Shown: one piece after another, positions 9,380 to 62,081 of the stretch
Layout of the letters: every line of letters begins with the position of its first letter
Position numbering within the stretch: position 1 is the first letter of the stretch
Source of the DNA: an uncultured Candidatus Saccharibacteria bacterium
GTDB taxonomy: Bacteria; Patescibacteriota; Doudnabacteria; UBA920
Reading direction: 5' to 3'
Length of the DNA: 64,000 nt
NCBI GenBank assembly: GCA_964532425.1
Contig: CAZHIA010000002.1
Span: forward strand, 169,798-233,797
Program-made: the position numbers and the translations under genes
Notes under the pieces: model-generated
What the model saw: the letters and a program-made list of their open reading frames with translations, nothing else
Databases searched by the model: none
What the model was told of the DNA's origin: nothing

Positions 9380-10945
9380 ATGGAAACTCCTGTCTCATAC
9401 GCGAAGCACCACAAATACATTTTTGGAACTTTGCTGGTCCTCGTTATTTTGGTGACCGCCATTGGTTCCCGTTTTATGGGTAAGAAGAACCAGCAGGCTG
9501 AGGTCAATCAGCTGTCCACGGTGACGCTGGTCAGCGCTCAGGATTATCTTAAGGATCGCGGACAAATTTCCGCCAATGGAATGGTTGAATCTCTGGAACA
9601 GGCAGAACTGCGCAGCCAGGCTTCCGGTCCGGTCACGAAGATTAATGTCCAAATCGGCCAGCAGGTAAGGAGCGGGCAGGTTTTGGTGACTTTGCAAAAT
9701 AATGACATTAGCGCGCAAATAGCCCAGGCCCAGGCTGTACTGAAGAGCCAACAAGCCCGCCTTGATGAGATGCGCAAAGGTGCTCGGAACGAACAGATTC
9801 TGTTGGAAGAAGCTAAACTGAATGCCGCCAAGCAAGGTCTGACTGATACCAAAGCCCAGCAAGACGTGCTGGTTAAAAGCGCTTACACAAGCTTGCTGAA
9901 TGCCGGGCTTACCGCCAAAGCGGGGAGCGGCAATAGCGGTTCGGGTAACCCGACCGTTTCCGGCAGTTATACCGGCACCCAGCAAGGCGAGTATGTGGTT
10001 ACCCTGTACGCCGCAAATGACGGAATGCATTACAAAGTGACGGGATTAGAGAATTATAGCGGTCTGATCAACTCGACTCCGCAATCGCTTGGTTCCCAGG
10101 GTTTGTTTATCCAGTTTCCCTCCGCCAATTTGAACGCGAACGACACATGGACTATTTCCATCCCGAATACCCAAGCTCCGACTTATACGGCTTTGAATAG
10201 CGCCTATCAGGCAGCGGTACAGGGACGCGAGACTGCGGTCAATGGTGCTCAGAGCGGGTTGAATGCCGAACAGAAAGCCTATGATCTCCTGGTAGCCGGC
10301 GCGACCAATGACCAAATTAGGCAGCAGGAGGCAGCAGTTGACCAGGCCAGTGCGGCAGTTGCCGCGGCATCCGCCCAGTATGACAAGACAGTCATCAAAT
10401 CCCCCATAGACGGCACGGTCGCATCATTGCCGGTCAAGTACGGCGAGCTGGTCAGTCCGGGAGCGCTTGTAGCTTCCGTAGTGAACAAGGGCGGCCAGCA
10501 GGTGAAGGCATACATTAGCGATTATGATCTTCCGTTTGTGGAAGAGGGGGCTGAAGTTGCCATTGGCGATAAGGCCACGGGCACGCTGGCACGCTTGTCC
10601 CCGAGTATTGATCCCCAGACTAAAAATGTCGAGGTACAAGTTGTTGTCACTGATCCGGCTGTAGCTGGTTTGGTCGTGGGTCAGAATGTGGCTTTAAAAA
10701 TTTCAACGAAGCAGTCGAGCGGTTCCGGCCCGGTGTTCTTGCTGCCGCTTCAGGCGGTAAAGGTTTCCGGTGGTGGTGCTTCGGTTTTGACCGTGAAAGA
10801 CGGTTCGATTATTGAAGAGCGCCCGGTGGAGCTTGGCTCTGTTTCCGGCGAGAATGTGGAAGTGAAAAGCGGCCTGACTCCCGATATGCAGATTATCTCG
10901 GCTGTGTATGATCTAAAAGCGGGGCAGAAGGTGAACGTGGAATAG
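9380..10945 (+). CDS. RND efflux periplasmic adaptor (membrane fusion protein, HlyD/AcrA family)
   Basis: N-terminal membrane anchor, long coiled-coil region and a C-terminal beta-barrel region with 'SPIDGTVASL'. Confidence 0.8.
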   Translation: METPVSYAKHHKYIFGTLLVLVILVTAIGSRFMGKKNQQAEVNQLSTVTLVSAQDYLKDRGQISANGMVESLEQAELRSQASGPVTKINVQIGQQVRSGQVLVTLQNNDISAQIAQAQAVLKSQQARLDEMRKGARNEQILLEEAKLNAAKQGLTDTKAQQDVLVKSAYTSLLNAGLTAKAGSGNSGSGNPTVSGSYTGTQQGEYVVTLYAANDGMHYKVTGLENYSGLINSTPQSLGSQGLFIQFPSANLNANDTWTISIPNTQAPTYTALNSAYQAAVQGRETAVNGAQSGLNAEQKAYDLLVAGATNDQIRQQEAAVDQASAAVAAASAQYDKTVIKSPIDGTVASLPVKYGELVSPGALVASVVNKGGQQVKAYISDYDLPFVEEGAEVAIGDKATGTLARLSPSIDPQTKNVEVQVVVTDPAVAGLVVGQNVALKISTKQSSGSGPVFLLPLQAVKVSGGGASVLTVKDGSIIEERPVELGSVSGENVEVKSGLTPDMQIISAVYDLKAGQKVNVE

Positions 10946-11098
10946 GAATTGACAAAATTTAAAAAATTGACAAAAATGTTCGGGCAAGAAACTGAAATAC
11001 AATTGTATTTCTACTGTATCTCAACTGTGTTACTACTGTATTCCAACAGTGTTGGCTTGCCAGTTAAGGCATATTAAATCAACTTTACCTTACGTACT

Positions 11099-14000
11099 AT
11101 GTCCGATCCTATTAACCCTTCTACTCCCCGCACCACCGACCAGCGCTACCTCGACCAGCTGGAATTCAAGCCGGAACTCAGAAAGACCTGGTTGAATTTT
11201 TTCGTCTCCAATTTCCGCGTGGTCATTCTCCTTATTATCCTGGTTAGCGGGGCCGGATTATATTCGTTCTTCCGCTTGCCGCGGGAATCCAATCCCGAAG
11301 TGAAGATCCCTATTGCCGTAGTTACGACGGTCTATCCCGGCGCTTCTCCTGCTGACGTGGAAGATTTGGTCACCAAGAAGATCGAAACCCAGGTCTCCGG
11401 CTTGAAGGGTCTCGATAAGATGACCTCGACCTCGGCCAATTCCTATTCGTCCATCGTCGTCGAATTCGACCCGAAGGAAGATTTGAAGGATTCCATCCGC
11501 AGCCTGCGGGACAAGGTGACTGATGCCAAAAAAGATCTTCCCGCGGATGCCAAAGATCCTGTCGTGACCGAAATCTCGCTGGATGACCAGCCGATTGAAA
11601 CCCTCGTCCTGACCGGGCCGTACGACGGTTTTACCATGCGCAAGTACGGCGAAGACCTTAAGGATGAACTGGAGAAAATCCCGGGCGTGCGCGAAGTTAA
11701 CATCTCCGGCGGCGACGAGAAGGAATTTCAGATCGCATATGATCCTGCCAAGTTGTTGTTTTACGGCATTTCCGCAGACCAGGCTAATCAGGCCGTTGCC
11801 GCCACCAATCTCGGCATACCTTCTGGCAACTTTGACGGCACAAAGTTCGTCTATCCTATCCGCACTGACTCGAAAGTCTATACTGCAGAGAGTATCGGCA
11901 ACATTGCCGTGTCCCATACCCAGGATGGGAGCGTGGTAACCGTGCGCGATCTGGGCCAGGTCAAAGAAACCTCCATCAAAAAAACCGTGTTGTCCCGCCT
12001 TTCCATTTTAGGTGACAAGCCGCAATCGGCCGTGACGCTGTCTATTGTCAAGCGCACCGGCAGTTCCATTTTGGACACTGCGGACAAAGCCAAACTGACC
12101 GCAGACAGCATGATCAAAACGTTTGCACCCGGCGTAAAGTACGATCTTACTTTCGATTCGGCCAAATTTGTCCGCGAGGATTTTAACCAGCTCACGCATG
12201 ACTTTATTCTGACCCTGTTGCTGGTCTTCGGCATATTGTTCCTTATTGTCGGACTCAAGGAGGCGTTTGTGGCCGGCCTTGCCATTCCGCTGACGTTCTT
12301 CATTAGTTTTACCGCGCTCGACATAATTGGTATTTCTTTAAACTTCCTTTCGCTATTCTCCTTGATTCTGGCTTTAGGTTTGTTGGTGGACGATGCCATT
12401 GTGGTCGTATCCGCTACCAAGCAGTACCTGCGGACTGGCAAGTACACGCCGGAAGAGGCGGTACTGCTGGTGCTCCATGATTTTAAAGTGGTACTGACCA
12501 CGACCACCCTGACCACGGTCTGGGCATTTTTGCCCCTGCTCTACTCTTCGGGCATTATGGGCGAGTACATCAAATCTATCCCGATTACCGTTTCCATAAC
12601 GCTCATCGGCTCGCTGCTTGTAGCTCTCATGATTAACCACCCGCTGGCTGCAGTGCTTGAACGGCTTCGCCTGACGCGGCGCTTTTTCTGGCTCCTGGAA
12701 GTGCTCATACTTATTATTGCCGGTATTTCCTTCATTGTTGGCGGCTGGGCCGGTTATCTCATTGGTGCTCTGTTGGTGGCGACTGAAATTTGGACTCTGG
12801 TCTGGTACGAGCGCGGGGGACATGCGGTGCTTATAGAGCATGAACAGTTATCCGAAAAAGAGTGGGAGAGCGACGAAGCGGTCAAACAGAAACTGCGCGA
12901 GCAGGCTAGCCACGAGAATCCTTCGCTGTCGAGCCGGCTCATGCATGGTATTATCCGCTTTGATCGGTTCCTGCCCATTTACGAAAAATACTTGCGCGCC
13001 GTTATTACGACCAAACAGCAGCGCCGAAGGCTCTACGTCGCAATAACGCTCCTGTTCCTTGTAGCCGTAGCCATGCCGGTCACCGGCATTGTTCAAAGCG
13101 AGTTCTTCCCGCCGTCTGATTCTGACTATGTCTACCTTGATATTCGCATGCCGGTCGGACAGAAACTGGAAGAGACCGACAAAATAGTAACACAGGTGGA
13201 AGAGAAATTGCTTCACTATCCGGAGATCGCCAATTTTTCCACGCTGGTCGGCCAGCCAAGCCCCCTCTCCGAAAGCAGCCGTGCCCAGACGAACCTAGCG
13301 TCCATTACCATTACACTGAAGGATAAGAAGATTAGAAAAGTAAAATCTTACGACTTTGCCGACCGCTTGCGTAACGAGGTCACTGACGTTGACGGCGCGG
13401 CTATTACCGTGTCTGCCCCGACCGGGGGGCCGCCGTCAGGCAGCGCATTCGAAGCACGCATCAAGGGCGATGACCTGAACAAGCTCAGTCAAATCGCTTA
13501 TGACTTGGAACCGAAGCTAACTTCCATCCCGGGCGTGATCAATGCCGATATTTCCCTCAAGGATAGCGCACCGGAATACACCTTCACCTTGGATCCTATC
13601 AAGCTGGAGCAGAATTCTTTGAATGCCGCGTACGTCGGTTCCACCCTGCGCATGGCTATTGCCGGTACGGATGTTTCCACCGTGCTCATTAACGGCAAAG
13701 AGGTGAAGATTGTCGCCCAGTTCGCGGACAACCAGCTACCAAGCTTGGAAGATGTGCAGAATTTGCAAATCCTGAACTTGCGCAAGCAGCCGGTCTTTTT
13801 GAAGGACGTAGCTCAGATAGATCTGAAGCCTTCCGTGGACAGCATTACCCGCATTGACCAGAAACGAACGGTGCTGCTGTCGGCCGGCGCCAACTCACAG
13901 ACAAACTCTAACATTATTCTGGCGCAGTTCAAGAAAAACATCGCGAACTACCAGCTGCCGGCAGGTTACAGCATTGTCTATGGCGGACAGAACGAACAGA

Positions 14001-46682: not shown

Positions 46683-46757
46683 GGCCCATTCGTCTAGTGG
46701 CTAGGACATCTGGTTTTCAGCCAGGTAACGGGGGTTCGATTCCCCCATGGGCTACCA
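46683..46757 (+). tRNA. tRNA-Glu (anticodon UUC), 75 nt with an encoded CCA
   Basis: Manual fold: 7-bp acceptor stem (G1-U72 wobble), D-stem GTCT/GGAC, anticodon stem TCTGG/CCAGG with loop TTTTCAG (anticodon TTC), T-arm GGGGG-TTCGATT-CCCCC, discriminator A, CCA. Confidence 0.85.
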
Positions 46758-48258
46758 TCGATTTTTTACCACCCGAAAGGGTGGTTTTCGATTGGAAGAT
46801 ATGCGAGATTTTTGGGGTTGTAAATGTTAAATAGTTGTATACCGGCTTTTCCGGAAAGATCAAACCCATAAGCTTTGTCTTTTGCCAAAAGGTTGCCTGT
46901 CTCCAGTAGTTCGGCAGTTGCTCAATAAAGTTAAATACGAAAGTTACCGCTTCATCGATATCGAATTCTTCCAGGCGAGTTTCCCGGAGTTGGCTCTCCT
47001 TGTCGGCGATCTTCATTTTGACCGCTTCGAATTCGGTTTTAAAATCTTCGTCCGAGATGAGTCCGGTTTTTACCAGGCTAAATACTTTGGCCTTTTCTAA
47101 TTTAAGCTCATCGATCTCAGTTCGCAAAGTTGCGTAATGCTGGTTAAGGTCCGAATACTTGCCTTGCCATACATCCAAAATAACTTCTTTAAATGCGTTC
47201 AAGAGATCTTTCTTTGGGGTGATGTCCTCTAAAAATTTAGCGAACTCCTCTTCCAGTTTGGCTTTGGGTACAGACTTTTTGTAAGCGCATTGTTTGTAAT
47301 AGCAGCGGTAATACGGATAGCGAACACCTAACTTACCCACGCTGTACATAGCCGTTAAAGGTCTTCCGCAATAACTGCAAATAATCATATTCCTTAAAGG
47401 GAATTCCGCGTCATGCCGGGCATTGGCAATATATTGGCCTTTGGTGTAATGTCTTAATAACTTTTGGTTTTTGTAAAAAGTTTCCTCGCTGATCAAGGCT
47501 TCATGGGTTCCCCGGAATTCCTTACCGGCGTATTCAATTACGCCCATGTAGAATTTGCTGGACAGGAACTTATGCATGAGCTGGGCCGTAATTTCGCCGC
47601 CTAATGGGGTTTTTAAGCCGCGCGCGGTAACTTGTTTCCTTAACTCTTCTTCCGTCCAAATGCCGGTGGAAAATTCGTTTAAAAGATATTTAACCAACTC
47701 GGACCGCTCCGGATCTAAAATGATGGTCTTTTCTCCGTTTGGTTTTGTAAAATTCAAATAGCCCAATGTAACCCGATGCGGAAAGCGGCCGGATTCGGCG
47801 CATCTGATCATGCCTTCCTTTACGCGCTCGCTTTTAATGTCGTTATCGAATTGGGCAATGCTGGCCATCATGTTGCCCATAAGTCTTCCGGATGAAGTTT
47901 CGTCTACCGGCTCGGTAGCAGATAATATTTGCACATCCAAACCTTTGAAAAAAGACTTAATTTGATAGTAGTCTTCCGCGTTACGGGTTAAGCGGTCAAT
48001 TTTGTAAACCACTATGCAATTTATATTGTTCTTTTTACTAGCGCAAAATTTAAGCATATCCTGCAAGCCCGGACGGTCCGTAGTTTTGGCCGATTCACCT
48101 GCATCGGAAAAATATTTAACAATTTTAAAATTATTACTCTCCGCGAATTTCCTACAAACTTCTTTTTGGTTGTTTAAACTAAATCCGCGTTCGGCCTGGT
48201 CCGAAGTGGAAACGCGATAATAAATTACAGCTTTTTTATTGCCAATATTTTTTATCAT
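46717..48258 (-). CDS. large serine recombinase (resolvase catalytic domain, recombinase domain and zinc ribbon)
   Basis: 'AVIYYRVSTSDQ', 'IDRLTRN' and 'CSYCGRPL...YYRCYYKQC' are present. Start set to the internal ATG (aa 16 of the ORF). The 3' 41 nt overlap the tRNA on the opposite strand. Confidence 0.85.
   Translation of the reverse strand: MIKNIGNKKAVIYYRVSTSDQAERGFSLNNQKEVCRKFAESNNFKIVKYFSDAGESAKTTDRPGLQDMLKFCASKKNNINCIVVYKIDRLTRNAEDYYQIKSFFKGLDVQILSATEPVDETSSGRLMGNMMASIAQFDNDIKSERVKEGMIRCAESGRFPHRVTLGYLNFTKPNGEKTIILDPERSELVKYLLNEFSTGIWTEEELRKQVTARGLKTPLGGEITAQLMHKFLSSKFYMGVIEYAGKEFRGTHEALISEETFYKNQKLLRHYTKGQYIANARHDAEFPLRNMIICSYCGRPLTAMYSVGKLGVRYPYYRCYYKQCAYKKSVPKAKLEEEFAKFLEDITPKKDLLNAFKEVILDVWQGKYSDLNQHYATLRTEIDELKLEKAKVFSLVKTGLISDEDFKTEFEAVKMKIADKESQLRETRLEEFDIDEAVTFVFNFIEQLPNYWRQATFWQKTKLMGLIFPEKPVYNYLTFTTPKISHIFQSKTTLSGGKKSMVAHGGIEPPLPG
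46733..46757. repeat. attL core: 25-bp direct repeat (3' end of tRNA-Glu)
   Basis: ggttcgattcccccatgggctacca, identical to 60362-60386. Confidence 0.8.
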
Positions 48259-48411
48259 AATTGCATAGTTAAATGCTAAAGGGGCGGCCCCTGATTCACC
48301 CAACTCAACTGTTCCAAAAGGAATAGCTTTGCTGGCAAGGACCGCCCCTAAAGGCAGTAAAGCAAATAAAAACCTTTCGGAACTATTTAATTGAGTGGGT
48401 GAATATTCATA

Positions 48412-49298: not shown

Positions 49299-51488
49299 TT
49301 AACTCGATAACTCCCTTATATTTTTACATTTCTCGCTCATTATCCAGCTAAATTCATCGGTTAAGCTGATAAATTTTTCGGGTTCTCCCACGCTGCCAAG
49401 ACCGTTTGCCGATAGATTACAAACCTTAAGAATTTTAAGTGCTTCCATTTCTTTGAGTGCTGTGGGCCGGGAACAGTTCAAAGCCTCCATAACTTCCTTT
49501 GTTGCCATTATTCCCTTAATATCTAGCAATGCTCGAAATAGCTTGGCTCTCGTTGTTGGCGCGCTATCGATTGAAATTTCAATGACTAACTTTAAATCAA
49601 AATTATTAATCTGTCGCCTGCCGCAAACTAACGCATGACCCCGGGCCAAGTTGTAGAATAACTGGTTAATTCGGTCCGGTTTTTCTATTACTGGCTGAGT
49701 GTACTCATATTCATTTCCGTCCACAGATTTATCTTTCCATACATTAATCACGCCGCGAAGCTTTGCTAAAAGTTGCGCGCATCGGGATATCATAACTACA
49801 GTCTCCCGATCGTCCTTAGATTTTTCCCATATCACGCCCTCAGGATTTTTAAACCATAAAGTTTGAAGAAAATCTTTTGTAATTTCTCTGCACTGTTTTT
49901 CTTTTTGTTTGTACGACTGATCAATTAACTGTTCGGCCAATTCGGTTTCACTTTTCTCTTTGGACAACATTTTTAAGAAAAACAGCCTGGACCCTAAATT
50001 GCCCATCATTTTCCATACACGCGGCGGTATAGGAGTAGAAGCGGCCAAAAGCATAAAAAGGTATTCGCCGACATATTGTCTTTGCCCATGAACTCCGCTA
50101 TCCGTATTCAACCCTTCCCCGTCCAATACGCGCGTTAAGATGCCTAATGACTCGTTTAAGTCATCATCCCTTTTCGAGAATAAGGTTGCTAAATCTCGGA
50201 TCATAAACATTTTATATTTTAAACGCGGCAATAAATCGATGTCCTTTAATTCCTCTTTGGAGACATTAGCTGAGTTGGACACAAACGAAGCCGGAGTAAA
50301 TTTGTCCGTGGCGTAAGTCAATCCTTCAATTTCAGAGAAGAAGTTTATTGCGATGGTTTTTCCGGATGAAGGCACGTCCACAAAAACTAAAGCAAACGGA
50401 TTTGTAACATCAGTTATTAAAATTTGGGCCATAATGGATAAACCGACTTCAGCTGGAAATTTTAATTCTGGAAAATTTTTTATCACCACACTCTTCCAAT
50501 CCGGAAAGGCTACTTCCCGGTCAATTTTATCGATTTTTTTAATACGTGGTAGTTCTTCCAAATTTAAGATTTCCTTAGCGTATTTGCTGGTTAAGTCTTC
50601 AATGTTTCCATCCAGCTTAATTAAAAAATCCGTTATATCGCCGCCTGTTCCGACTTCTTTAGGCAAAATAACTTTGTACAAGCTTTTATGCCCGGCTTCT
50701 TTAAATTTGTATATAAGTCTTTCGGCTCCTTCTCTTCCTGCTTTGTCATTATCAAAACAAACATAAATTGACTTTACGTTCAAAAGATTTTTTACCCAGT
50801 CATCCTTAAATGTTCCGGCCCCATGAGTGGATGTAACAGCACTGATGCCCCGGCCCACAAGTGCTAAACGATCTAATTCGCCCTCACAGATAATAATTTT
50901 TTCCGTACTGAATGGCACTGTTTCCCAATCGTATAACTGAGCTTCCCCGGAAGGGTAAGTCACTTTTTCTTTGCCTTCTTTTGGGTTTCTTCTTAGTTTA
51001 AAATATGCATAATCCCCACTTTGGTCTTTAATTGGTATAGTTATCCAAGTCTTGCCATAAAAATTGCCAAACCCTAATTTATATTGCTTGATGACAATAT
51101 CTGAAATTCCCCGGTCGTTTAGATAACGCCTAATATCATCTGGTATATTAGCGTGGCAACTTTCAACTAGCGCATTATCAAAATTTACATTATCGCTTTC
51201 ATTGTATTTTTGTTTTTTCGAACTTGGCTCTTTCCAATTTAAAGCAATATCTTTCAGTTCATCGCCCCAAAATTCGCGCAATGTATGAATGTTCCCCTGA
51301 GTACCGCATTTTTTACAATCGTACTGGCCTGTTTTTTCGTCAAAATATAAGTGTGCTTCTTTACCGGAACTGTCTTCATCACAACCACTAAACAAACAAT
51401 GAGTTACAAGTTCACCATTTGCGCGCTGGTATTTTACCCCTTTTCTGTCTAAATATTCCTTTATTGTTATGGTTTCAAAATTTTGCAT
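49299..51488 (-). CDS. DnaG-like primase (CHC2 zinc finger plus TOPRIM) fused to a P-loop NTPase region; island replication protein
   Basis: Zinc finger 'HCLFSGC...DCKKCG', TOPRIM 'IIICEGELD' and 'CFDNDKAGREGAERL', and Walker A 'DVPSSGKT' are present. Confidence 0.75.
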   Translation of the reverse strand: MQNFETITIKEYLDRKGVKYQRANGELVTHCLFSGCDEDSSGKEAHLYFDEKTGQYDCKKCGTQGNIHTLREFWGDELKDIALNWKEPSSKKQKYNESDNVNFDNALVESCHANIPDDIRRYLNDRGISDIVIKQYKLGFGNFYGKTWITIPIKDQSGDYAYFKLRRNPKEGKEKVTYPSGEAQLYDWETVPFSTEKIIICEGELDRLALVGRGISAVTSTHGAGTFKDDWVKNLLNVKSIYVCFDNDKAGREGAERLIYKFKEAGHKSLYKVILPKEVGTGGDITDFLIKLDGNIEDLTSKYAKEILNLEELPRIKKIDKIDREVAFPDWKSVVIKNFPELKFPAEVGLSIMAQILITDVTNPFALVFVDVPSSGKTIAINFFSEIEGLTYATDKFTPASFVSNSANVSKEELKDIDLLPRLKYKMFMIRDLATLFSKRDDDLNESLGILTRVLDGEGLNTDSGVHGQRQYVGEYLFMLLAASTPIPPRVWKMMGNLGSRLFFLKMLSKEKSETELAEQLIDQSYKQKEKQCREITKDFLQTLWFKNPEGVIWEKSKDDRETVVMISRCAQLLAKLRGVINVWKDKSVDGNEYEYTQPVIEKPDRINQLFYNLARGHALVCGRRQINNFDLKLVIEISIDSAPTTRAKLFRALLDIKGIMATKEVMEALNCSRPTALKEMEALKILKVCNLSANGLGSVGEPEKFISLTDEFSWIMSEKCKNIRELSS

Positions 51489-51515: not shown

Positions 51516-51761
51516 TTAAAGCATGTTCGCTATAGCCTGAGTTAATTCTTTTAAGCCTTTTTCATACTGGCCGGGATGCAGGGCGAATATTCCGGAGTGG
51601 AATTTTGCTATTGCACTTATTAATTTATAGCTATAGGAAAAATTAAATATCACTTTATATTCCTTGCTATAAATATCAATTACGCGAATTGGAAACAAAG
51701 TACTAAGTTTTACTGCTAACTGAAGATCGCTAATTGGATATAGATTCCCTTGTTTAGGCAT
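51516..51761 (-). CDS. small hypothetical protein
   Basis: 81-aa ORF, AT-rich. Confidence 0.35.
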   Translation of the reverse strand: MPKQGNLYPISDLQLAVKLSTLFPIRVIDIYSKEYKVIFNFSYSYKLISAIAKFHSGIFALHPGQYEKGLKELTQAIANML

Positions 51762-52961: not shown

Positions 52962-53256
52962 ACCTTTTTCTTTATTTTACTCCCTATTTCCAGTTTGGGA
53001 AATTTGCTGTAAAATATAGGTACAATTGAATAGAGTAGCCTAAACCTTGCAGTAATGCAGGGCATGGCGAAAAAATCCGGATAAGAACAGAGACGGTCAT
53101 CGTCTTGCTTTACTTATCCGGTTATCATCCGAAAGGGTGGTAGGCCTATCCCGAAAGGGAAAAGCCATTGCAAGCGGTGGCCCTTTTTGTTATCCGTATA
53201 AAATTAATAATCGAAGTTTATTTTAGAGAAGCAAAAATAATTTTATTTAAAAAGGT

Positions 53257-53775
53257 ATGAAAAGAGAATTGTGGAATTCAATTTTAAACTCATTGCCAGA
53301 TACGAGAGCCTCAATCATTGCACCAGAAGATGTTGAGGAAGCAGCGGATATGCTAGATGCAGACAATATAAATCATCAAAAATTCTTGTCTAATATGGAA
53401 GCGTTTTTTGCAGGGCCAAATTTTAAAACGCGCGCAATTTTACGGGGACAAAATATTGAAGAAGACATGACATCCTCGATGAAATTTTTTGCCGGAAGAA
53501 TTGACAAAAAAGCTCCAGCAATCCCCATATGGTTTTACAGCGCTTACCCTGATGTAATGAACTGGTTTACCGAAAAACAAAAACAGCTAATTTCTTCCCG
53601 GGATACTGATTTCATAACGGCCGAAAATTCCAAATTATATGGTATAAATATTTCTGATCCATTATTAAACATACAGAATATTACAAACAGTAAGGGCGAA
53701 ACCAAACCAAAGTATTTAAAAAATTTGGTACACAATTTTAAGATTACGTTTGGTCAAAAACTTGAAGCACAGTAA
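53257..53775 (+). CDS. hypothetical protein
   Basis: 172-aa product; first of a plus-strand run of genes. Confidence 0.45.
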   Translation: MKRELWNSILNSLPDTRASIIAPEDVEEAADMLDADNINHQKFLSNMEAFFAGPNFKTRAILRGQNIEEDMTSSMKFFAGRIDKKAPAIPIWFYSAYPDVMNWFTEKQKQLISSRDTDFITAENSKLYGINISDPLLNIQNITNSKGETKPKYLKNLVHNFKITFGQKLEAQ

Positions 53776-53789
53776 TTTTGCTTTTAAAT

Positions 53790-54104
53790 ATGGCAAGGAA
53801 AAATTATTATCCCATATTCCAGATAATCTCAATCATTTTGCTATTGCTGGCCATCCCTTCTGTCTGGCCTTACGGTGTTTATCAATTTGTAAAAATTGTT
53901 GTATTCTTAACGTGCATTTACAATATTTATATTTTGAAAGAGAAGGACCAGATTTGGACAATTTTGTTTATAGTATTAGCTCTCCTATTTAATCCCGTCG
54001 TTCCGATATATTTGTCTAAAAACTTATGGCAAATAATTGACGGCATTTCGGCAATAATCATTTTTACAAATTACGCTAAATTTAAAAAAATTATTAATCC
54101 TTAA
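53790..54104 (+). CDS. small membrane protein
   Basis: Three transmembrane helices. Start at the ATG (aa 5 of the ORF). Confidence 0.4.
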   Translation: MARKNYYPIFQIISIILLLLAIPSVWPYGVYQFVKIVVFLTCIYNIYILKEKDQIWTILFIVLALLFNPVVPIYLSKNLWQIIDGISAIIIFTNYAKFKKIINP

Positions 54105-54109
54105 AACAC

Positions 54110-54385
54110 ATGGGCGAGCACTGGCAAAAATTGCTTTTCAAAAACTTAAAACGTGAACCTAATTCTAAACCCCTGGTTTTTGAAATTTTATTTTTGCTTG
54201 GGGAAGAAAAACCTTCGGACCCGGTACAATATATCAAGGACTGGCTTTTAAGCCATCCAGCCGAAACAGAACGATTAAAAGACCAGGAATTGCTTAACAG
54301 GGAAGCTGAATTTATATATAAGCTTTCTACCGGCGAAATTCCTTTCCCGGAATATTGCACACGAGTATATAAAAAGATTGATTAA
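54110..54385 (+). CDS. small hypothetical protein
   Basis: 91-aa product. Confidence 0.4.
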   Translation: MGEHWQKLLFKNLKREPNSKPLVFEILFLLGEEKPSDPVQYIKDWLLSHPAETERLKDQELLNREAEFIYKLSTGEIPFPEYCTRVYKKID

Positions 54386-54456
54386 ATTTAACTCGCTAAA
54401 TATGCTATAATTTAAGCATAAATTAGCGAGTTTTTAATTTTAGTGTTGTCAAAAAA

Positions 54457-56730
54457 ATGACAAATTACGATTTCAAAAATTTATCTCCTCTGGACTTCGA
54501 GGTCCTAGTTAAAGACCTGCTGGAGGCGAAGTTAAAAATTAATTTAGAAAATTTTATTGCCGGTCCGGACGGAGGCGTTGATTTAAGGTATTGCTACGAC
54601 TCGAAAAATGAATTAGTGATCCAATGCAAAAATTATTTTGATTTCAACCAATTACTAAGAGTTTTAAAAAAGGAAGTTAAAAAAGTAAGAGAACTAAAAC
54701 CTAAGAGATATATTGTAGCCACCTCTGTCGGGCTGACTAGGCTACGAAAGGCCAAAATTCATGAGCTGTTTAAGCCGTTCATGCGTAAGCCATCTGACGT
54801 TTACGGGGCAAGCGATCTGAATTCCATAATATCTAAAAATAAGGATATTGAGCGGTCCCACTTTAAGCTCTGGCTATCCAGTACCAATATTCTAAATACC
54901 ATTGTTCACAGTAAAGTCGTCAACCAGAGCCGTTTCGAGATGGATAGGATAAAGGACGCTGTAAAAGTTTATGTCCCAAATGAAAGTTTTAATGAAGCTC
55001 TTAATATCTTGCAGCAAAGACATGCTGTAGTAATTTGCGGCATCCCCGGTATCGGCAAATCCACATTAAGCCGTATACTGGCTTACCATTATTTAGCCAA
55101 TGGTTTTGACGAGTTTATTTATATTTCAAATTCCATTTCAGAAGCCTATGAGCTTTACGAGGATGGGAAAAAACAGGTATTTTTCTTTGACGATTTTTTA
55201 GGGAAACGGCTTTTGGAAGAAAATCTGGAAACAAACGAAGATCAAAATATCTTACGTTTTATGGAAAAGGTCGCGGATTCAGAGGATAAAATTTTGATTC
55301 TGGCCACAAGGGAGTATATCTTAAACCAAGCAAAGGAAAAATTTGAAAATTTAAACCAACACCGGGTGCAGTTATCGAAGTGCATTTTAGATCTGAAAAA
55401 ATACACAAATTTTGTACGCGCAAAAATTCTATACAACCATTTGTTTTTTTCTAAACTGCCGGAAAAATACATTGAAAATTTAGTATACCATAAAAATTTT
55501 CTCGATATAATCAAACACAGAAATTATAATCCCCGGATAGTTCACACGATCACGCAAGATCAAGATGTTTGGAAAAATATCTCACCTGAAAATTTTTACG
55601 ACAAATTTATAGAATATCTTGATAAGCCATTCAGTATATGGGAACATGTATTTTCGCATCAAATCTCGCCACTTTCCCAGGCCCTTCTTCTTATCCTGGC
55701 CCAAACAGACACCCCAATATTGAAAGATGATCTCGCGGATGCGGTTTCCGCGTTCGGAGCTAAGTTTGGCAATAAGTATGGTTTTAAGTTTAATGAGCGG
55801 GATTTTGAACATGCCCTAAGAGAATGCGAGAACACGTTTATAACCATAGACAAGGACCCAAATAACCACCTGTATATAGATTTCCAAAATCCTTCAATTC
55901 AGGATTTTTTGATTTTGTATATTAGCCAGGACGAAAAACTTACATTTGACCTGATTACGGCCGCCCATTTTTTTAACCAAGCAATTAACATGCTTTCGAA
56001 GCCGATCAATAAATCATCCACGATTGAACCGGCACAACTCAAACGTGAAGTTAAGCAAAAAGTAATGGAAAATTTTGCTATACTTCGAAGTTCTGGACTT
56101 ACTAAAACCACTATGGCGGGTAAAGCTGATGACTGGTGGTGGTCAAAAGCCAATGACACCGAACTATCCAGGCTAAACATACTGTTCAATAAATTTGGGC
56201 AGGATCAGGACGTGAGGCAACTTATTAAAGAACGAATTATTGCGATGGATGAAAAGAAGTTTAACAACGCTGATGTGCCGTACTATGTCAACCTTCTTGC
56301 TGGCCTGGGCAAATCCATAGGCAAGGATCCTGCCGAACTAATTAAAAACCTGTCCTCCAGCATTTACTTTACCGACGGCATCGATCAGCTTGAGAGGCTT
56401 TCTAAAGTCTACCCTAAGGAATACCGTGCTTTTATCAAGGGCACTGAATTTTCAAATTTAGTAGACTATACCATAGATAATGAAATGGAAAATACTGACG
56501 ACGATGGTTTAGAAGAATTAAGAGACAACGTACAATCTTTGCAAAGAAGGTTTAACCTGGACCTATCGGAAAAACTCGACACTATCCAGGAGATGTTAGG
56601 AGATGCCCGGTCCCGACACTATGCTGAGATGGACCCCGACGATTACCGGGTTAATTACGATGACCACCGAGAAATTTCTGACGGCGAATTAAGGGCCATG
56701 TTCGACACCCTTCGAACCGGCCAAAAATAA
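54457..56730 (+). CDS. Mrr-like restriction-endonuclease (PD-(D/E)xK) domain fused to a STAND-type P-loop NTPase and helical C-terminal region (Avs-like antiviral ATPase candidate)
   Basis: N-terminus 'LSPLDFEVLVKDLL...GPDGGVDL...VIQCKNY' (Mrr_cat-like). Walker A 'VICGIPGIGKSTL'. Walker B 'VFFFDDFLG'. 'ILILATRE' sensor-1-like motif. About 350 aa of helical C-terminus. Confidence 0.7.
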   Translation: MTNYDFKNLSPLDFEVLVKDLLEAKLKINLENFIAGPDGGVDLRYCYDSKNELVIQCKNYFDFNQLLRVLKKEVKKVRELKPKRYIVATSVGLTRLRKAKIHELFKPFMRKPSDVYGASDLNSIISKNKDIERSHFKLWLSSTNILNTIVHSKVVNQSRFEMDRIKDAVKVYVPNESFNEALNILQQRHAVVICGIPGIGKSTLSRILAYHYLANGFDEFIYISNSISEAYELYEDGKKQVFFFDDFLGKRLLEENLETNEDQNILRFMEKVADSEDKILILATREYILNQAKEKFENLNQHRVQLSKCILDLKKYTNFVRAKILYNHLFFSKLPEKYIENLVYHKNFLDIIKHRNYNPRIVHTITQDQDVWKNISPENFYDKFIEYLDKPFSIWEHVFSHQISPLSQALLLILAQTDTPILKDDLADAVSAFGAKFGNKYGFKFNERDFEHALRECENTFITIDKDPNNHLYIDFQNPSIQDFLILYISQDEKLTFDLITAAHFFNQAINMLSKPINKSSTIEPAQLKREVKQKVMENFAILRSSGLTKTTMAGKADDWWWSKANDTELSRLNILFNKFGQDQDVRQLIKERIIAMDEKKFNNADVPYYVNLLAGLGKSIGKDPAELIKNLSSSIYFTDGIDQLERLSKVYPKEYRAFIKGTEFSNLVDYTIDNEMENTDDDGLEELRDNVQSLQRRFNLDLSEKLDTIQEMLGDARSRHYAEMDPDDYRVNYDDHREISDGELRAMFDTLRTGQK

Positions 56731-56743
56731 TCTTATTTAGCAT

Positions 56744-57301
56744 ATGGAAAACGAGGTCAAACAAATAGTCGAAAAATCTATCCTGGAGATAATTGAGGAA
56801 TTTAATAGTAATCCGGACGTGTTTCTTACGGAAGAAGATGTAAGGTGCCATCTAGTCGCTAAACTTTTACAGAATAAACAGCTATCGACTCTGGCCGATA
56901 CCGCAGACGGCTCAAAATCCATTCCGATTCATACCGAAGTACGGTGGTACGGGGCAAGCGGAAAATTACGTTACAGATCCGATATTGTTCTGCTTAAAAC
57001 AAATTCTTTAAAAACAAAAAGATCCTTCCACTTGCCCACCAAAGGATATTCGTTTGATGAATTCTACTCGATTATAGAAGTTAAATTGCGCCGCATACGT
57101 CCGAGGAGCGACAAAAAATATTTAACTCTCATTAAAGAAGATTTTGAACGTTTACAAGCTTTGATAGAAGATACACCTGGAGTAAACGCAACTTTTCATT
57201 TGATCTGCTTTGATAAAAAATCTGATCTTTCTCCTAACCTGGACCGGTATTATCATGATCCCAAAATAAAATTCCAGTATATTTTTAAAGATTGTCGCTA
57301 A
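56744..57301 (+). CDS. small PD-(D/E)xK-like nuclease-fold protein (tentative)
   Basis: 'RSDIVLL' ... 'IIEVKL' give a D...E-x-K spacing. The gene lies 13 nt after the NTPase gene. Confidence 0.4.
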   Translation: MENEVKQIVEKSILEIIEEFNSNPDVFLTEEDVRCHLVAKLLQNKQLSTLADTADGSKSIPIHTEVRWYGASGKLRYRSDIVLLKTNSLKTKRSFHLPTKGYSFDEFYSIIEVKLRRIRPRSDKKYLTLIKEDFERLQALIEDTPGVNATFHLICFDKKSDLSPNLDRYYHDPKIKFQYIFKDCR

Positions 57302-57311
57302 AAATACGGGT

Positions 57312-58265
57312 ATGAACTTTCTAAGAAAAATATTTGCCAAGAAAAACCTTATTTCCAGGAGCACAACTCCAACAAATGAACTAAGCACCCACGTTGCAAT
57401 TCCAGAACCTACTAAATCTTTACTTTGGATAACGAACGAAAACGCTTCTAAAATCAGATCAGCCGGATCAATCCGAATCACTATCACTCTATCTGATACA
57501 GGGGTAAAAACTACTCAGGGAGACCCCGATGACAGTAATAATTTTTTCTCTGAGCCGAGCCTTATTTGGACCAAGTTGCCGGTTTTGCCGAACTCCAGCC
57601 TGGAAACAAAACCGATGTATTACCCTTCCTACTCCGGCCTTTCCCCGGCTCACCGGTACCAATACTTAAAATGGCTGGCCAATGTTGAACAGCCGACAAA
57701 TTTAAGTTACGTATTCCTTTATTACTATGGTTTAGAAAGACACCTACTTATCGGAAACTACGATGGCGCAGTAGATGAAATATTACGCCTGATAAAATTC
57801 CACGATCGGGGAACTTTTAAAAGCTACGCAACGACGGCTCTATTAGTAGCTAGCCTTGAGCGAAAAAGACCGGATATTTTTCAAAAGGCTCCTTTTTTAT
57901 TGGAACAACTTACCAATGAAGGCATACTGCTTAGATTCCTAACAGGTAATAGCCTTACAGCAAAAGAGGTGATGAGCTTAGCCTCGCAAGTTGGCTTTAA
58001 AAATAAACGCTACATTAAATTGCGCCCGGTAGATTTTGAGGAAGAACTACAAAATAGAATTGACCGCTCTGAAATTTCAATAAAAAATACCATAACTTTA
58101 TATTCTTTAAAAACGGAAAACTCTACAGCTTTTGCTAACCTCTCTATACCCGATCACATCAGGACAATAAAAATACCTCAAATCTTATACGATGAAAGAT
58201 TTAAGGCAAATCTCCTGGCTCTTTTAGAACAAACACACGAAGCCATCAAAAATAGGCCACGTTGA
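57312..58265 (+). CDS. hypothetical protein with a TerB-N-like motif (tentative)
   Basis: 'YYPSYSGLSPAHRYQYLKWL...YVFLYYYGLERHLL'. The gene lies 10 nt after the preceding gene. Confidence 0.4.
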   Translation: MNFLRKIFAKKNLISRSTTPTNELSTHVAIPEPTKSLLWITNENASKIRSAGSIRITITLSDTGVKTTQGDPDDSNNFFSEPSLIWTKLPVLPNSSLETKPMYYPSYSGLSPAHRYQYLKWLANVEQPTNLSYVFLYYYGLERHLLIGNYDGAVDEILRLIKFHDRGTFKSYATTALLVASLERKRPDIFQKAPFLLEQLTNEGILLRFLTGNSLTAKEVMSLASQVGFKNKRYIKLRPVDFEEELQNRIDRSEISIKNTITLYSLKTENSTAFANLSIPDHIRTIKIPQILYDERFKANLLALLEQTHEAIKNRPR

Positions 58266-60074: not shown

Positions 60075-60361
60075 ATGTTCATCGATGGGGAATCGAACGG
60101 GCAGCAGTGAGCTAGTGGAGGCCAGCAGGCCGACACGTAGCGAACGCCGAAGAAGTGCTACGGATAGCACTTCTTTGCTGCCCCGGACAACGAAGCCCGC
60201 CTGGGGCGGGCGAGGCGGAATTCCCCCATGGGCAAGGGGATACAGCCGAGCGATCTAGGAACTGCCACCGGCAGTTTATCGCAATCCATGGACAAGTGAG
60301 TCCGCCAGCTGGCGGACGAGCGCGACAATTCCCCCATGAATCATCGAATGTAGCCGTAGGC
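60075..60361. repeat. GC-rich hairpin-dense block with nested degenerate copies of the tRNA 3' end (island right-arm/attR region)
   Basis: Partial copies 'attcccccatgggc' near 60222 and 'attcccccatg' near 60327 precede the full repeat. Four consecutive inverted repeats are present, including the 16-bp palindrome tccgccagctggcgga. Confidence 0.5.
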
Positions 60362-60386
60362 GGTTCGATTCCCCCATGGGCTACCA
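60362..60386. repeat. attR core: 25-bp direct repeat
   Basis: Identical to 46733-46757. It has no 5' acceptor-strand partner, so it is a 3' fragment only. Confidence 0.8.
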
Positions 60387-60551
60387 CTAACAACCTCATT
60401 CCCCAGAATGGGGTTTTTAGTTTGGTTTTATTGATGCGAAATGAATTTTCCAAAATTTAGGTGTGATTGATATATTTTTGAAATATACTTATAGTTAAGG
60501 TAAATTAGTTTTCAATCCCAGTTTGGTACCCAAAAGCTAAAATAAATTGTT

Positions 60552-61283
60552 ATGGAAAATAATGAATTTGGAACTTTAATGCAGCGTCTTAAAGACATGC
60601 ATAATCGGTATTATAAAACTATACATGCTTTTTATGCCTATGAAGCTCTTCGTGAAGTTATAGCCCCAAATATTGTTGGTGAACACATGGCTCATGGAAA
60701 TGTAGAGGTATTTAATAAGTATAAAAACTTTTTTCTCCCAGCCAAAGAATCTTTAAAAGTATATTTTTTCTTAGAGCTCGCAAAATTATTTGATGCCTCT
60801 AAACAATCCTTGCACATTAATAAAATTATTAATTTTACTGAAAGTAACATTGAAAATTTAACTGTTGATGCATTCCAAGAATATAATCAGGACCGAGAAC
60901 TTGTTACTCAATTGATCAAAGAGTACAAAGGCATGTCGCATAAAGATCTTACAGAAATCAGAAACTCCCTCACTAAGCATCAGGTGGTCCTGGAAAAGTT
61001 GGAAGACTATAGAAACAAATGGCTTGTGCATGATGATTTAAATAAACCCGAGATACCTTCTATAACAGGAGAGGAAATAAAAAGCTTACTTGAAATAATA
61101 GAAAAAATTCTGAATTCTTTCACGGGTAAATTAAATAGTGAAAGTTGGTTATATAGTTATGCGGAAGACGAGACTAAATCTGACGTTCGTTTGGTTATTG
61201 ATCACCTGCGGAGATTTGAACCCTATAGAATAAAAGAGATTGAAGATGAGTATAAAGAGAATTTAAAAAAATTTTCCGTTTAG
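60552..61283 (+). CDS. hypothetical protein (possible HEPN-like R-x5-H motif)
   Basis: 243-aa AT-rich product containing 'RNKWLVH'. Confidence 0.4.
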   Translation: MENNEFGTLMQRLKDMHNRYYKTIHAFYAYEALREVIAPNIVGEHMAHGNVEVFNKYKNFFLPAKESLKVYFFLELAKLFDASKQSLHINKIINFTESNIENLTVDAFQEYNQDRELVTQLIKEYKGMSHKDLTEIRNSLTKHQVVLEKLEDYRNKWLVHDDLNKPEIPSITGEEIKSLLEIIEKILNSFTGKLNSESWLYSYAEDETKSDVRLVIDHLRRFEPYRIKEIEDEYKENLKKFSV

Positions 61284-61437
61284 CCATTCTTTATCAAAAA
61301 TAAGTAAACTTCCCTCACCAAAGCCAAATAAGTTTTCCAGCCGTTCAGACGGTATCTACCACAAAAAACTCGAACATAATTCGAGTTTTTGTTTGCTAAT
61401 ATAATTTTATTATTAGTAAAGGTATTTTTACAGCTAA

Positions 61438-61893
61438 TTGAATATATGGCATAATTATAATATGCAAAACAATAGGGAAACCCATATTTTACCTGAAAAC
61501 GAAATAGTGAACGCAATAGCGCAAAATGCTCAGTGGGAATTGAATTCTCGTGGAAATGATGTCATAACTCTAAGTTATGGAAGGAAAGATTTAATGATTG
61601 TTGCCAGTAAACGTGATAATTCGGTTATTACCAGAGTTGAAAATATGAGGGAGTCTGGCCAAGAAGAAAATGAAACCACCTTGTTATATACTGCAGCTAA
61701 AAAAATAATGGGGCAGCTTGCTCAAAAATACAAAAGCGATTTAAAGTATACTATAAGTACTTCGGATGAAAGTATGAATGCTTGGGCACAAAGTAAAGGT
61801 GTTAACATTTTTAATTTACAACCGGCTTCTGATATCCGTGATGATTTTGATCATCATTATCGAGCAACTATAGCATATAAACCAGAGGAATAG
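61438..61893 (+). CDS. hypothetical protein
   Basis: 151-aa AT-rich product. Confidence 0.4.
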   Translation: MNIWHNYNMQNNRETHILPENEIVNAIAQNAQWELNSRGNDVITLSYGRKDLMIVASKRDNSVITRVENMRESGQEENETTLLYTAAKKIMGQLAQKYKSDLKYTISTSDESMNAWAQSKGVNIFNLQPASDIRDDFDHHYRATIAYKPEE

Positions 61894-62081
61894 GTTTTAA
61901 AACTATAATGCAGATTGCAAAATAATGATTTAGTTAGGTGGCCATTCAAACATTGATTAAATTTAAATAAACACCTTTTATCAAAGCCAAAAATTTTTTC
62001 ACCTGTCTCGACTTGGTCTACCAACAAAAGAACACTGCTTCATAGTAGTGTTCTTTTATTGGTAATTAATATAGGATGTGG

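What the first reader, a model, noticed from the sequence alone, without database searches (positions are those of the whole stretch)
54457..58265. Compact three-gene candidate antiviral cassette in the island: Mrr-nuclease/STAND NTPase, small PD-(D/E)xK-like protein and TerB-N-like protein
Seen in the sequence: three plus-strand genes separated by only 13 and 10 nt, which is operon-like. Gene 1 (757 aa) has an N-terminal Mrr_cat-like restriction-endonuclease core (GPDGGVDL ... QCKNY), Walker A VICGIPGIGKSTL, Walker B VFFFDD, an ILILATRE sensor-1-like motif and a long helical C-terminal region. From established knowledge this is the effector/ATPase/sensor layout of antiviral STAND (Avs) proteins, but this protein is much shorter than described Avs1-4. 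Gene 2 (185 aa) shows D...E-x-K spacing (RSDIVLL ... IIEVKL). Gene 3 carries YxxLSPxxRYQYLxWL ... FLYYYGLERHLL, which resembles the TerB-N domain linked to defence/stress systems. By inference this is a defence module carried as island cargo. Combining a short Mrr-STAND protein with these two partners is, as far as I can judge, not a described named system.
Basis: partly seen in the sequence, partly recalled or inferred. Interest (0 to 1): 0.8.

Follow-up and report, generated by a model that had tools for sequence, protein, structure and literature searches.

The report
Three independent defence genes, island cargo
Three tightly packed genes on a small integrated mobile element are real and look like anti-phage genes, but relatives of each are found elsewhere without the other two, so this looks like a miniature defence island rather than a new three-part immune system.

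Summary
Three + strand ORFs (757, 185 and 317 aa) lie 13 and 10 nt apart, inside a 13.6-kb element integrated at tRNA-Glu and bounded by an exact 25-nt repeat.

The domain calls also hold:
- Gene 1 is Mrr_cat + nSTAND3 NTPase. It matches the untested PADLOC single-gene candidate PDC-S73 over its full length (E 1e-160).
- Gene 2 has no family model. Its high-confidence predicted structure has a BglII/BamHI-type restriction-endonuclease fold.
- Gene 3 carries a TerB_N domain on a helical scaffold.

The system-level reading does not hold:
- None of 43 gene 1 loci, drawn from many phyla, has a gene 2 or gene 3 relative. They share no recurrent neighbour at all.
- None of 63 non-redundant gene 2 loci has gene 3. 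One has gene 1, but not adjacent.
- Gene 3's relatives mostly form a different operon (helicase–DUF2779–TerB_N).

The best reading is three separately evolving defence-type modules, probably co-transcribed, carried as cargo. Gene 1 is an Avs-like stand-alone sensor-nuclease. A lineage-specific composite that mirrors the helicase–DUF2779–TerB_N layout is not excluded, but only this one instance was found. Interest is modest.

The parts
46683..46757 (+). tRNA-Glu (UUC), the integration target. Its last 25 nt (46733-46757) form attL.
   Evidence: ARAGORN, Rfam tRNA 60.1 bits, exact repeat search.
46717..48303 (-). Large serine recombinase, the element's integrase. Its 3' end overlaps attL.
   Evidence: Pfam Resolvase 3.6e-36, Recombinase 8.7e-11, Zn_ribbon_recom 2.7e-8.
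49299..51488 (-). Toprim-domain primase-like replication protein of the element (729 aa).
   Evidence: Pfam Toprim_2 4.8e-12 and other Toprim models.
54457..56730 (+). Gene 1: Mrr-type nuclease, nSTAND3 P-loop NTPase and a variable C-terminal region, in one protein (757 aa). Member of PADLOC candidate family PDC-S73.
   Evidence: PADLOC PDC-S73 E 1.1e-160 over 1-739 of 752 profile positions. Pfam. More than 1600 homologues.
54475..54696 (+). Gene 1 Mrr_cat nuclease domain (aa 7-80), with family-invariant D38, G40, D42, Q56, C57, K58.
   Evidence: Pfam Mrr_cat E 1.7e-6, above its cut-off. Invariant columns in a 27-sequence alignment.
54970..55449 (+). Gene 1 nSTAND3 NTPase core (aa 172-331). 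Invariant Walker A G195-x-P197-G198-I199-G200-K201, Walker B D245/D246, and T284-R285-E286.
   Evidence: Pfam PF20720 E 4.3e-51, profile positions 1-155 of 155. Invariant columns.
56744..57301 (+). Gene 2: stand-alone PD-(D/E)xK nuclease-fold protein of BglII/BamHI type (185 aa), from a small family with no existing model.
57312..58265 (+). Gene 3: TerB_N-domain protein (317 aa) with a helical scaffold and no recognisable enzymatic domain.
60362..60386 (+). attR: exact 25-nt copy of the tRNA-Glu 3' end, marking the right boundary of the 13.6-kb element.
   Evidence: 2 matches, 0 expected.

Best explanation
The 3.8-kb segment is the cargo slot of a 13.6-kb element integrated at tRNA-Glu by a serine recombinase. 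It holds three defence-type genes that evolve and move independently, so it is a miniature defence island and not one three-component machine. Gene 1 is a self-contained Avs-like protein. By inference, its C-terminal region senses an infection cue, the nSTAND3 NTPase drives nucleotide-dependent assembly, and the N-terminal Mrr-type nuclease then cuts DNA. Gene 2 is a solitary BglII/BamHI-fold nuclease. Its relatives sit next to many different defence proteins. By inference it acts alone, most simply as a nuclease aimed at foreign or modified DNA, because no methyltransferase accompanies it. Gene 3 is a TerB_N scaffold protein. Its relatives usually form the last gene of a helicase-DUF2779-TerB_N operon, but here it has been separated from those partners. 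The three genes are probably co-transcribed, since the gaps are 13 and 10 nt and no terminator lies between them. Shown here: gene structure, domains, folds, island borders and the lack of co-occurrence. Inferred: all biochemical activities and the anti-phage role.
For: The domains are confirmed. Gene 1 relatives: 43 loci from Bacteroidota, Patescibacteria, Acidobacteriota, Alpha- and Epsilonproteobacteria, Streptomyces and others. None has a gene 2 or gene 3 relative within 7 kb. No neighbour family recurs in more than 4 of the 43 loci. Annotated plasmid copies are single genes flanked by recombinases or type I RM. This fits PADLOC's single-gene class, PDC-S73. Gene 2 relatives: 63 non-redundant loci. 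None has gene 3, and one (L072) has a gene 1 relative 2.2 kb away with two genes in between. Their tight same-strand neighbours are very diverse: type IIG RM/Eco57I methylases (6-7 loci), HerA (6 loci), NACHT NTPases, DruA, Mrr_cat-DndB, ResIII helicases, an ABC ATPase, DUF4365-TPR-PIN, DUF2779, and one SIR2 fusion. Gene 3 relatives: 5 of 8 independent contexts hold a helicase plus DUF2779, and none holds gene 1 or gene 2. The nearest relatives sit at very different distances (gene 1 44%, gene 2 72%, gene 3 69% identity) and come from different contexts. The nSTAND3 module occurs in validated Avs5 proteins.
Against: The 13 and 10 nt gaps, shared strand and similar GC (37-40%) are what an operon-encoded system would look like. 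Gene 2 relatives very often sit directly behind a large NTPase or methylase, so gene 2 could be a promiscuous accessory and not autonomous. The layout [REase+NTPase][PD-(D/E)xK][TerB_N] mirrors gene 3's usual operon [helicase+MTES_1575 REase][DUF2779 nuclease][TerB_N]. Sampling is limited to 43, 63 and about 15 loci. No activity of any of the three families has been tested: the PDC candidates are untested.
Confidence: 0.62

Rival explanations
1. One reading: the three genes form one dedicated three-component antiviral system, with a STAND sensor-nuclease and two obligate partners.
For: Operon-like spacing and shared strand. No terminator-like site in the two short gaps. All three carry defence-associated domains.
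Against: The combination was seen nowhere else: 0 of 43 gene 1 loci, 0 of 63 gene 2 loci (one non-adjacent gene 1) and 0 of about 15 gene 3 loci. Gene 1 relatives have no recurrent neighbour at all. Gene 1's family is catalogued as a single-gene candidate.
Confidence: 0.08
2. Lineage-specific composite formed by module replacement. Gene 3 (TerB_N) kept its role but swapped partners. Gene 1 (REase + P-loop NTPase) stands in for the helicase-MTES_1575 protein, and gene 2 (PD-(D/E)xK) stands in for the Cas4-like DUF2779 nuclease.
For: The two architectures run in parallel. DUF2779 is described as a Cas4-like PD-(D/E)xK plus exonuclease protein. A gene 2 relative directly follows a DUF2779 gene in L048, and another lies 3.4 kb from one in L013. 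The slot before TerB_N can accept an extra gene, as in L132 with DUF2130. Gene 3 is intact, keeps all family-invariant residues, and its closest relative (69% identity) is helicase-DUF2779-linked. No helicase or DUF2779 is present in the 64-kb window.
Against: Only this single instance exists. Gene 3 relatives also occur without any helicase or DUF2779 (L121, L133, L135), so TerB_N need not have a fixed partner. Gene 1 and gene 2 families are otherwise independent. The rest of the genome outside the window could not be searched.
Confidence: 0.15
3. Not antiviral. The genes serve the mobile element itself (stabilisation or addiction, exclusion of competing elements) or some housekeeping or stress role.
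For: The genes ride on an integrative element. Gene 1 relatives occur on 40 plasmids, 28 of them conjugative. One gene 3 relative lies between murJ and lepA. TerB-family proteins were first linked to stress responses, and how they act in defence is stated to be unclear.
Against: The neighbourhoods of gene 2 and gene 3 relatives are dominated by RM, BREX/DISARM-type, Druantia, HerA, NACHT and OLD-like genes. Gene 1 matches a candidate family that was defined by being embedded in defence systems. Anti-plasmid and anti-phage roles are not mutually exclusive.
Confidence: 0.12

Closest known systems
PADLOC phage-defence candidate PDC-S73 (single-gene candidate)
   Same: Gene 1 matches the family model end to end (E 1.1e-160, positions 1-739 of 752). 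It shares the Mrr_cat + nSTAND3 architecture and length (about 750-775 aa) with more than 100 listed homologues. Relatives are stand-alone genes.
   Different: It is only 39-44% identical to its nearest relatives. Here it is followed at 13 nt by two further defence-type genes, which was seen in no other locus. The candidate class is untested.
Avs (antiviral STAND) proteins, especially Avs5 (SIR2-nSTAND3-repeats)
   Same: Both have a tripartite layout: an N-terminal effector, a central STAND NTPase and a C-terminal region. The NTPase belongs to Pfam nSTAND3 (PF20720), the family reported in validated PaAvs5 proteins.
   Different: The effector is an Mrr-type nuclease, not SIR2. No PADLOC Avs model matched gene 1 at E up to 1. 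No TPR, Sel1 or PPR repeats were detected by Pfam in the C-terminal 420 aa. It is much shorter than, for example, SeAvs3 (2028 aa, as listed).
Shango (SngA/SngB/SngC) and other TerB-containing defence systems (Bunzi, Dionysus)
   Same: Gene 3 matches the N-terminal TerB_N part of SngA (E 4.6e-14, profile positions 63-181 of 528). TerB-family proteins are components of validated systems.
   Different: Gene 3 has only TerB_N, with no TerB core or TerB_C hit. No SngB or SngC-like ATPase or helicase lies beside it.
Recurrent but uncatalogued operon: SF1 helicase (AAA_11/AAA_12 + MTES_1575) - DUF2779 - TerB_N
   Same: Gene 3's closest relatives (53-69% identity) are the third gene of this operon.
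   Different: The window has neither the helicase nor DUF2779. Gene 3 instead follows genes 1 and 2.
Type II restriction endonucleases of the BglII/BamHI/OkrAI/BstYI structural class

Membership tests
PDC-S73 (PADLOC candidate) | Full-length match to the family HMM | tested here: met
   E 1.1e-160, 534.9 bits, protein 1-739 against profile 1-739 of 752.
PDC-S73 (PADLOC candidate) | Acts as a single gene, with no obligate neighbour | tested here: met
   43 loci have no recurrent neighbour family (at most 4 of 43) and no gene 2 or gene 3 relatives. Plasmid copies are solitary.
PDC-S73 (PADLOC candidate) | Demonstrated anti-phage activity | not testable with these tools
   The source paper calls the 145 PDCs untested. 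No paper in the library mentions PDC-S73.
Avs / antiviral STAND | N-terminal effector domain | tested here: met
   Mrr_cat E 1.7e-6 at aa 7-80, with invariant D38, D42, Q56, K58.
Avs / antiviral STAND | Central STAND-type P-loop NTPase with intact Walker A and B | tested here: met
   nSTAND3 E 4.3e-51 over the whole profile. GxPGIGK and DD are invariant in the family.
Avs / antiviral STAND | C-terminal repeat (TPR-like) sensor domain | tested here: inconclusive
   No repeat family was detected by Pfam in aa 340-757. This region is the least conserved part of the family, and most plasmid relatives align only over aa 1 to about 510. That fits a variable sensor, but the structure was not modelled.
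Avs / antiviral STAND | Match to an Avs1-5 family model | tested here: not met
   No Avs model appears among the PADLOC hits at E up to 1.
Avs / antiviral STAND | Activation by binding a phage protein, followed by oligomerisation | not testable with these tools
   Needs experiments.
Shango | SngA with TerB_N + TerB + TerB_C | tested here: not met
   Only TerB_N was detected. The SngA match covers profile positions 63-181 of 528.
Shango | Adjacent SngB ATPase and SngC helicase | tested here: not met
   Genes 1 and 2 do not hit SngB or SngC. There are no other genes in the cassette.
Helicase-DUF2779-TerB_N operon (uncatalogued) | TerB_N protein of this subfamily | tested here: met
   69% identity to P0148 and 53-60% to other operon members.
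Helicase-DUF2779-TerB_N operon (uncatalogued) | Upstream SF1/SF2 helicase and DUF2779 genes | tested here: not met
   No DUF2779 homologue in the whole window. The only helicase-query hit is a weak P-loop-level match to gene 1 itself (E 0.005).
Type II restriction-modification | PD-(D/E)xK endonuclease fold | tested here: met
Type II restriction-modification | Cognate DNA methyltransferase next to the endonuclease | tested here: not met
   No methyltransferase domain was found in any scanned island ORF. The 81-aa ORF at 51516-51761 was not scanned. Only some gene 2 relatives lie near methylases.

The most novel reading that the evidence does not exclude
The cassette is a newly assembled composite. 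A TerB_N scaffold that normally works with a helicase-REase and a Cas4-like DUF2779 nuclease has been re-wired to an Mrr-nSTAND3 sensor and a BglII-like nuclease. That would be an example of non-orthologous module replacement creating a new TerB_N-dependent immune system. It would also make the gene 2 family, which has no existing model, a general plug-in nuclease for many defence NTPases.
Probability: 0.13. Interest if true: 0.6.

Novelty: new member of a known kind. Interest (0 to 1): 0.33.

Why it matters
For the scan, this shows that tight spacing plus three defence-like domains is not enough to call a multi-gene system. Three things are worth keeping:

1. A divergent Mrr-nSTAND3 (PDC-S73) gene on a mobile element. 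Its gene 2 and gene 3 companions have their closest relatives in Patescibacteria-type contigs. It could be tested as a compact, 757-aa Avs-like nuclease.
2. A small, well-conserved nuclease family with a BglII/BamHI fold and no Pfam, PADLOC or NCBIfam model. It sits beside many different defence proteins.
3. A recurrent helicase-DUF2779-TerB_N operon that is not catalogued as a multi-gene system in PADLOC v2. It could help explain what TerB_N domains do in immunity, which the literature still calls unclear.

Tried and rejected
- Literature on PDC-S73: no paper in the library mentions it, and the PADLOC-candidate preprint's supplements hold no 'S73' string. I could not learn in which system the family was found embedded.
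The host organism stays unidentified.
- Neighbour-versus-distant-gene PADLOC comparison for gene 2: both sets are rich in defence models, so it shows a defence-island setting but is not a clean enrichment test.
- Fold search for gene 3 found only generic helical repeats. Sequence searches of the PDB were empty for genes 2 and 3, and gave only P-loop-level hits for gene 1.
- Phage genomes: gene 2 has no hit and gene 3 has one weak hit at 33% identity. Seven distant gene 3-like genes in IMG/VR contigs have no helicase, DUF2779, gene 1 or gene 2 nearby. I therefore set aside a phage-encoded or counter-defence origin.
- Composition does not separate the three genes (GC 37-40%). The promoter and terminator scans were no better than shuffled sequence.
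- Gene 2 as a classical type II restriction enzyme was rejected for this locus, because no methyltransferase is present.
- Shango membership for gene 3 was rejected (see the membership test).
Full report
OBSERVATION. All are on the + strand, with gaps of 13 and 10 nt. All quoted motifs are present in the translations. These are genuine genes. Gene 1 has more than 1600 homologues (best non-self E 2.5e-184). Gene 2 has 26, at up to 72% identity. Gene 3 has at least 326, at up to 69% identity.

SETTING. The cassette lies inside a well-delimited integrated element. tRNA-Glu(UUC) is at 46683-46757. Its last 25 nt, GGTTCGATTCCCCCATGGGCTACCA, recur exactly at 60362-60386, with two matches against zero expected. 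Next to attL is a large serine recombinase (Resolvase, Recombinase and Zn_ribbon_recom domains), followed by a Toprim primase-like gene. GC is 38.7% inside the element versus 50.6% in the upstream host DNA. No methyltransferase domain was found in any scanned island ORF. The host organism could not be identified. The closest relatives of genes 2 and 3 come mostly from Patescibacteria-labelled assemblies.

GENE 1. Pfam gives nSTAND3 (PF20720) at E 4.3e-51 over the whole profile (aa 172-331) and Mrr_cat at E 1.7e-6 (aa 7-80). PADLOC gives a full-length match to PDC-S73 (E 1.1e-160, 1-739 of 752). The N-terminal 180 aa also match the N-terminal module of two Argonaute-associated protein models. 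No Avs model matches.

In a 27-sequence alignment the nuclease residues (D38, D42, Q56, K58), Walker A (GxPGIGK, K201), Walker B (D245, D246) and T284-R285-E286 are invariant. Conservation falls away after about residue 510. Most plasmid relatives likewise align only over residues 1 to about 510.

PDCs are 145 untested candidates that were proposed because they are embedded in BREX, DISARM or type I RM loci. nSTAND3 is the NTPase module reported in experimentally validated Avs5 (SIR2-STAND) proteins. Gene 1 is therefore an Avs-like effector-NTPase-variable-region protein. It is already catalogued as a single-gene candidate and is about 40-44% identical to its nearest relatives.

CO-OCCURRENCE: THE DECISIVE TEST. 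I built profile HMMs for the three families and searched every fetched locus.

(a) Gene 1. 43 loci from many phyla with 7-kb flanks hold no gene 2 or gene 3 relative. Clustering their neighbours shows no family recurring in more than 4 of 43 loci. Two annotated plasmid copies are solitary genes, flanked by recombinases and, in one case, a type I RM system.

(b) Gene 2. 68 metagenome loci plus 6 others reduce to 63 non-redundant loci. None has gene 3. One (L072) has a gene 1 relative, but it lies 2.2 kb away behind two other genes, and there the gene 2 domain is fused to a SIR2_2 domain.

(c) Gene 3. In eight independent contexts, five pair the TerB_N gene with a large helicase and a DUF2779 gene. 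These are L006, L119/120 and L124, then L132 with an extra DUF2130 gene, and L137 with an SNF2 helicase. Two sit in mobile or defence islands without these partners (L133, L135). One sits between murJ and lepA (L121). None has gene 1 or gene 2. The window itself has no DUF2779 homologue, and the helicase queries find only a weak P-loop-level match to gene 1.

The closest relatives of genes 2 and 3 (72% and 69% identity) come from contexts unrelated to each other and to gene 1.

WHAT GENE 2'S NEIGHBOURS SAY. Gene 2 relatives very often lie directly behind a large same-strand gene, but that gene differs from locus to locus:
- type IIG RM / Eco57I-type methylases (6-7 loci)
- HerA ATPases (6 loci)
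- a 2141-aa NACHT protein (gap 8 nt), and a 1328-aa NACHT protein downstream in another locus
- DruA
- Mrr_cat-DndB
- ResIII helicases
- an AAA_13 ABC ATPase
- DUF4365-TPR-PIN
- DUF2779

. Genes 4.5-8 kb away are also rich in BREX, DISARM and RM models. The family is therefore a defence-island resident with no fixed partner. Either it is autonomous or it is a promiscuous accessory, and the data cannot separate these.

MECHANISM (inferred). Gene 1: an infection cue is sensed by the variable C-terminal region, nSTAND3 drives nucleotide-dependent assembly, and the Mrr-type nuclease cleaves DNA, by analogy with Avs proteins. Gene 2: a metal-dependent DNA endonuclease. With no methyltransferase partner here, it would have to spare host DNA in some other way, for example by specificity for modified or otherwise foreign DNA, or by tight regulation. 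Gene 3: a non-enzymatic scaffold or sensor. None of these activities has been tested.

RIVALS. An obligate three-gene system is unlikely (about 0.08). A lineage-specific composite is not excluded (about 0.15). The layout [REase+NTPase][PD-(D/E)xK][TerB_N] parallels [helicase+MTES_1575 REase][Cas4-like DUF2779][TerB_N]. A gene 2 relative directly follows DUF2779 in L048. But only one instance of the window's layout exists. A non-antiviral, element-maintenance role (about 0.12) is also possible: gene 1 relatives are common on conjugative plasmids.

VERDICT. The 'three-gene system' and 'not described' claims are not supported. This is a typical cargo mini defence island whose lead gene belongs to a catalogued but untested candidate family. 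Novelty: new member of a known kind. Interest is modest, about 0.33. Two by-products are worth recording: the gene 2 nuclease family, which has no existing model, and the helicase-DUF2779-TerB_N operon.

Noticed in passing
window 53037-53166 (+): A strong match to Rfam LOOT RNA (RF03000), 72.7 bits against a gathering score of 46.4. It is followed by a terminator-like hairpin at 53164-53181. It lies inside the island, at the divergent junction between the minus-strand integration/replication genes and the plus-strand cargo genes. I do not know its function.
   Followed up: partly
window 60388-62000, including gene 60552-61283 (+): Just outside attR is a second low-GC patch (31.7%) carrying a HEPN_AbiU2 abortive-infection-type gene (Pfam E 8e-15) and a 151-aa ORF. 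A further copy of the 14-nt att core lies at 60220-60233. This suggests the tRNA-Glu site is a hotspot holding remnants of an earlier insertion.
   Followed up: partly
L006 4979-10984; L119 810-7960; L124 1781-8413; L132 1-8912; L137 8001-14161: A recurrent operon: SF1 helicase (AAA_11/AAA_12 + MTES_1575 REase domain, 1167-1643 aa), then DUF2779, then a TerB_N protein. One variant has an SNF2 helicase and one has an inserted DUF2130 gene. The helicase hits PADLOC PDC-S37, Hhe and Mokosh models. DUF2779 has no PADLOC model, so the three-gene combination is not catalogued there.
   Followed up: partly
L008-L075 (gene 2 family loci); window 56744-57301: A small family with a BglII/BamHI-like fold, no Pfam, NCBIfam or PADLOC model, and 505 clusters at 50% identity. 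It sits tightly beside many different defence proteins: type IIG RM, HerA, NACHT, DruA, DndB, ABC ATPase and PIN-TPR. It is a possible new defence-associated nuclease family.
   Followed up: partly
L072 6834-8531 (+): A 565-aa protein that fuses a SIR2_2 domain to a C-terminal gene 2-type nuclease domain. It lies 2.2 kb upstream of a gene 1 relative (10697-12970), with YopX-like and DUF4268 genes in between. A second fusion of 681 aa (P0332) appeared in the exhaustive search.
   Followed up: partly
window 54389-54440: A long AT-rich hairpin (AACTCGCTAA...TTAGCGAGTT) contains a TATAAT hexamer, is followed by a T-run, and ends just upstream of the gene 1 start codon. It could be the terminator of the upstream three-gene block, an operator/promoter for gene 1, or both.
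   Followed up: no
window 53257-54385 (+): Three small + strand genes precede the cassette: a 172-aa ORF with no family, a DUF6804 membrane-like protein (Pfam E 2e-20) and a 91-aa ORF. Their function is unknown and their relation to the cassette was not examined.
   Followed up: no
window 46717-46757: The 3' end of the serine recombinase ORF overlaps the tRNA-Glu 3' end and attL by 41 nt, so the end of the integrase gene runs into the attachment site.
   Followed up: no
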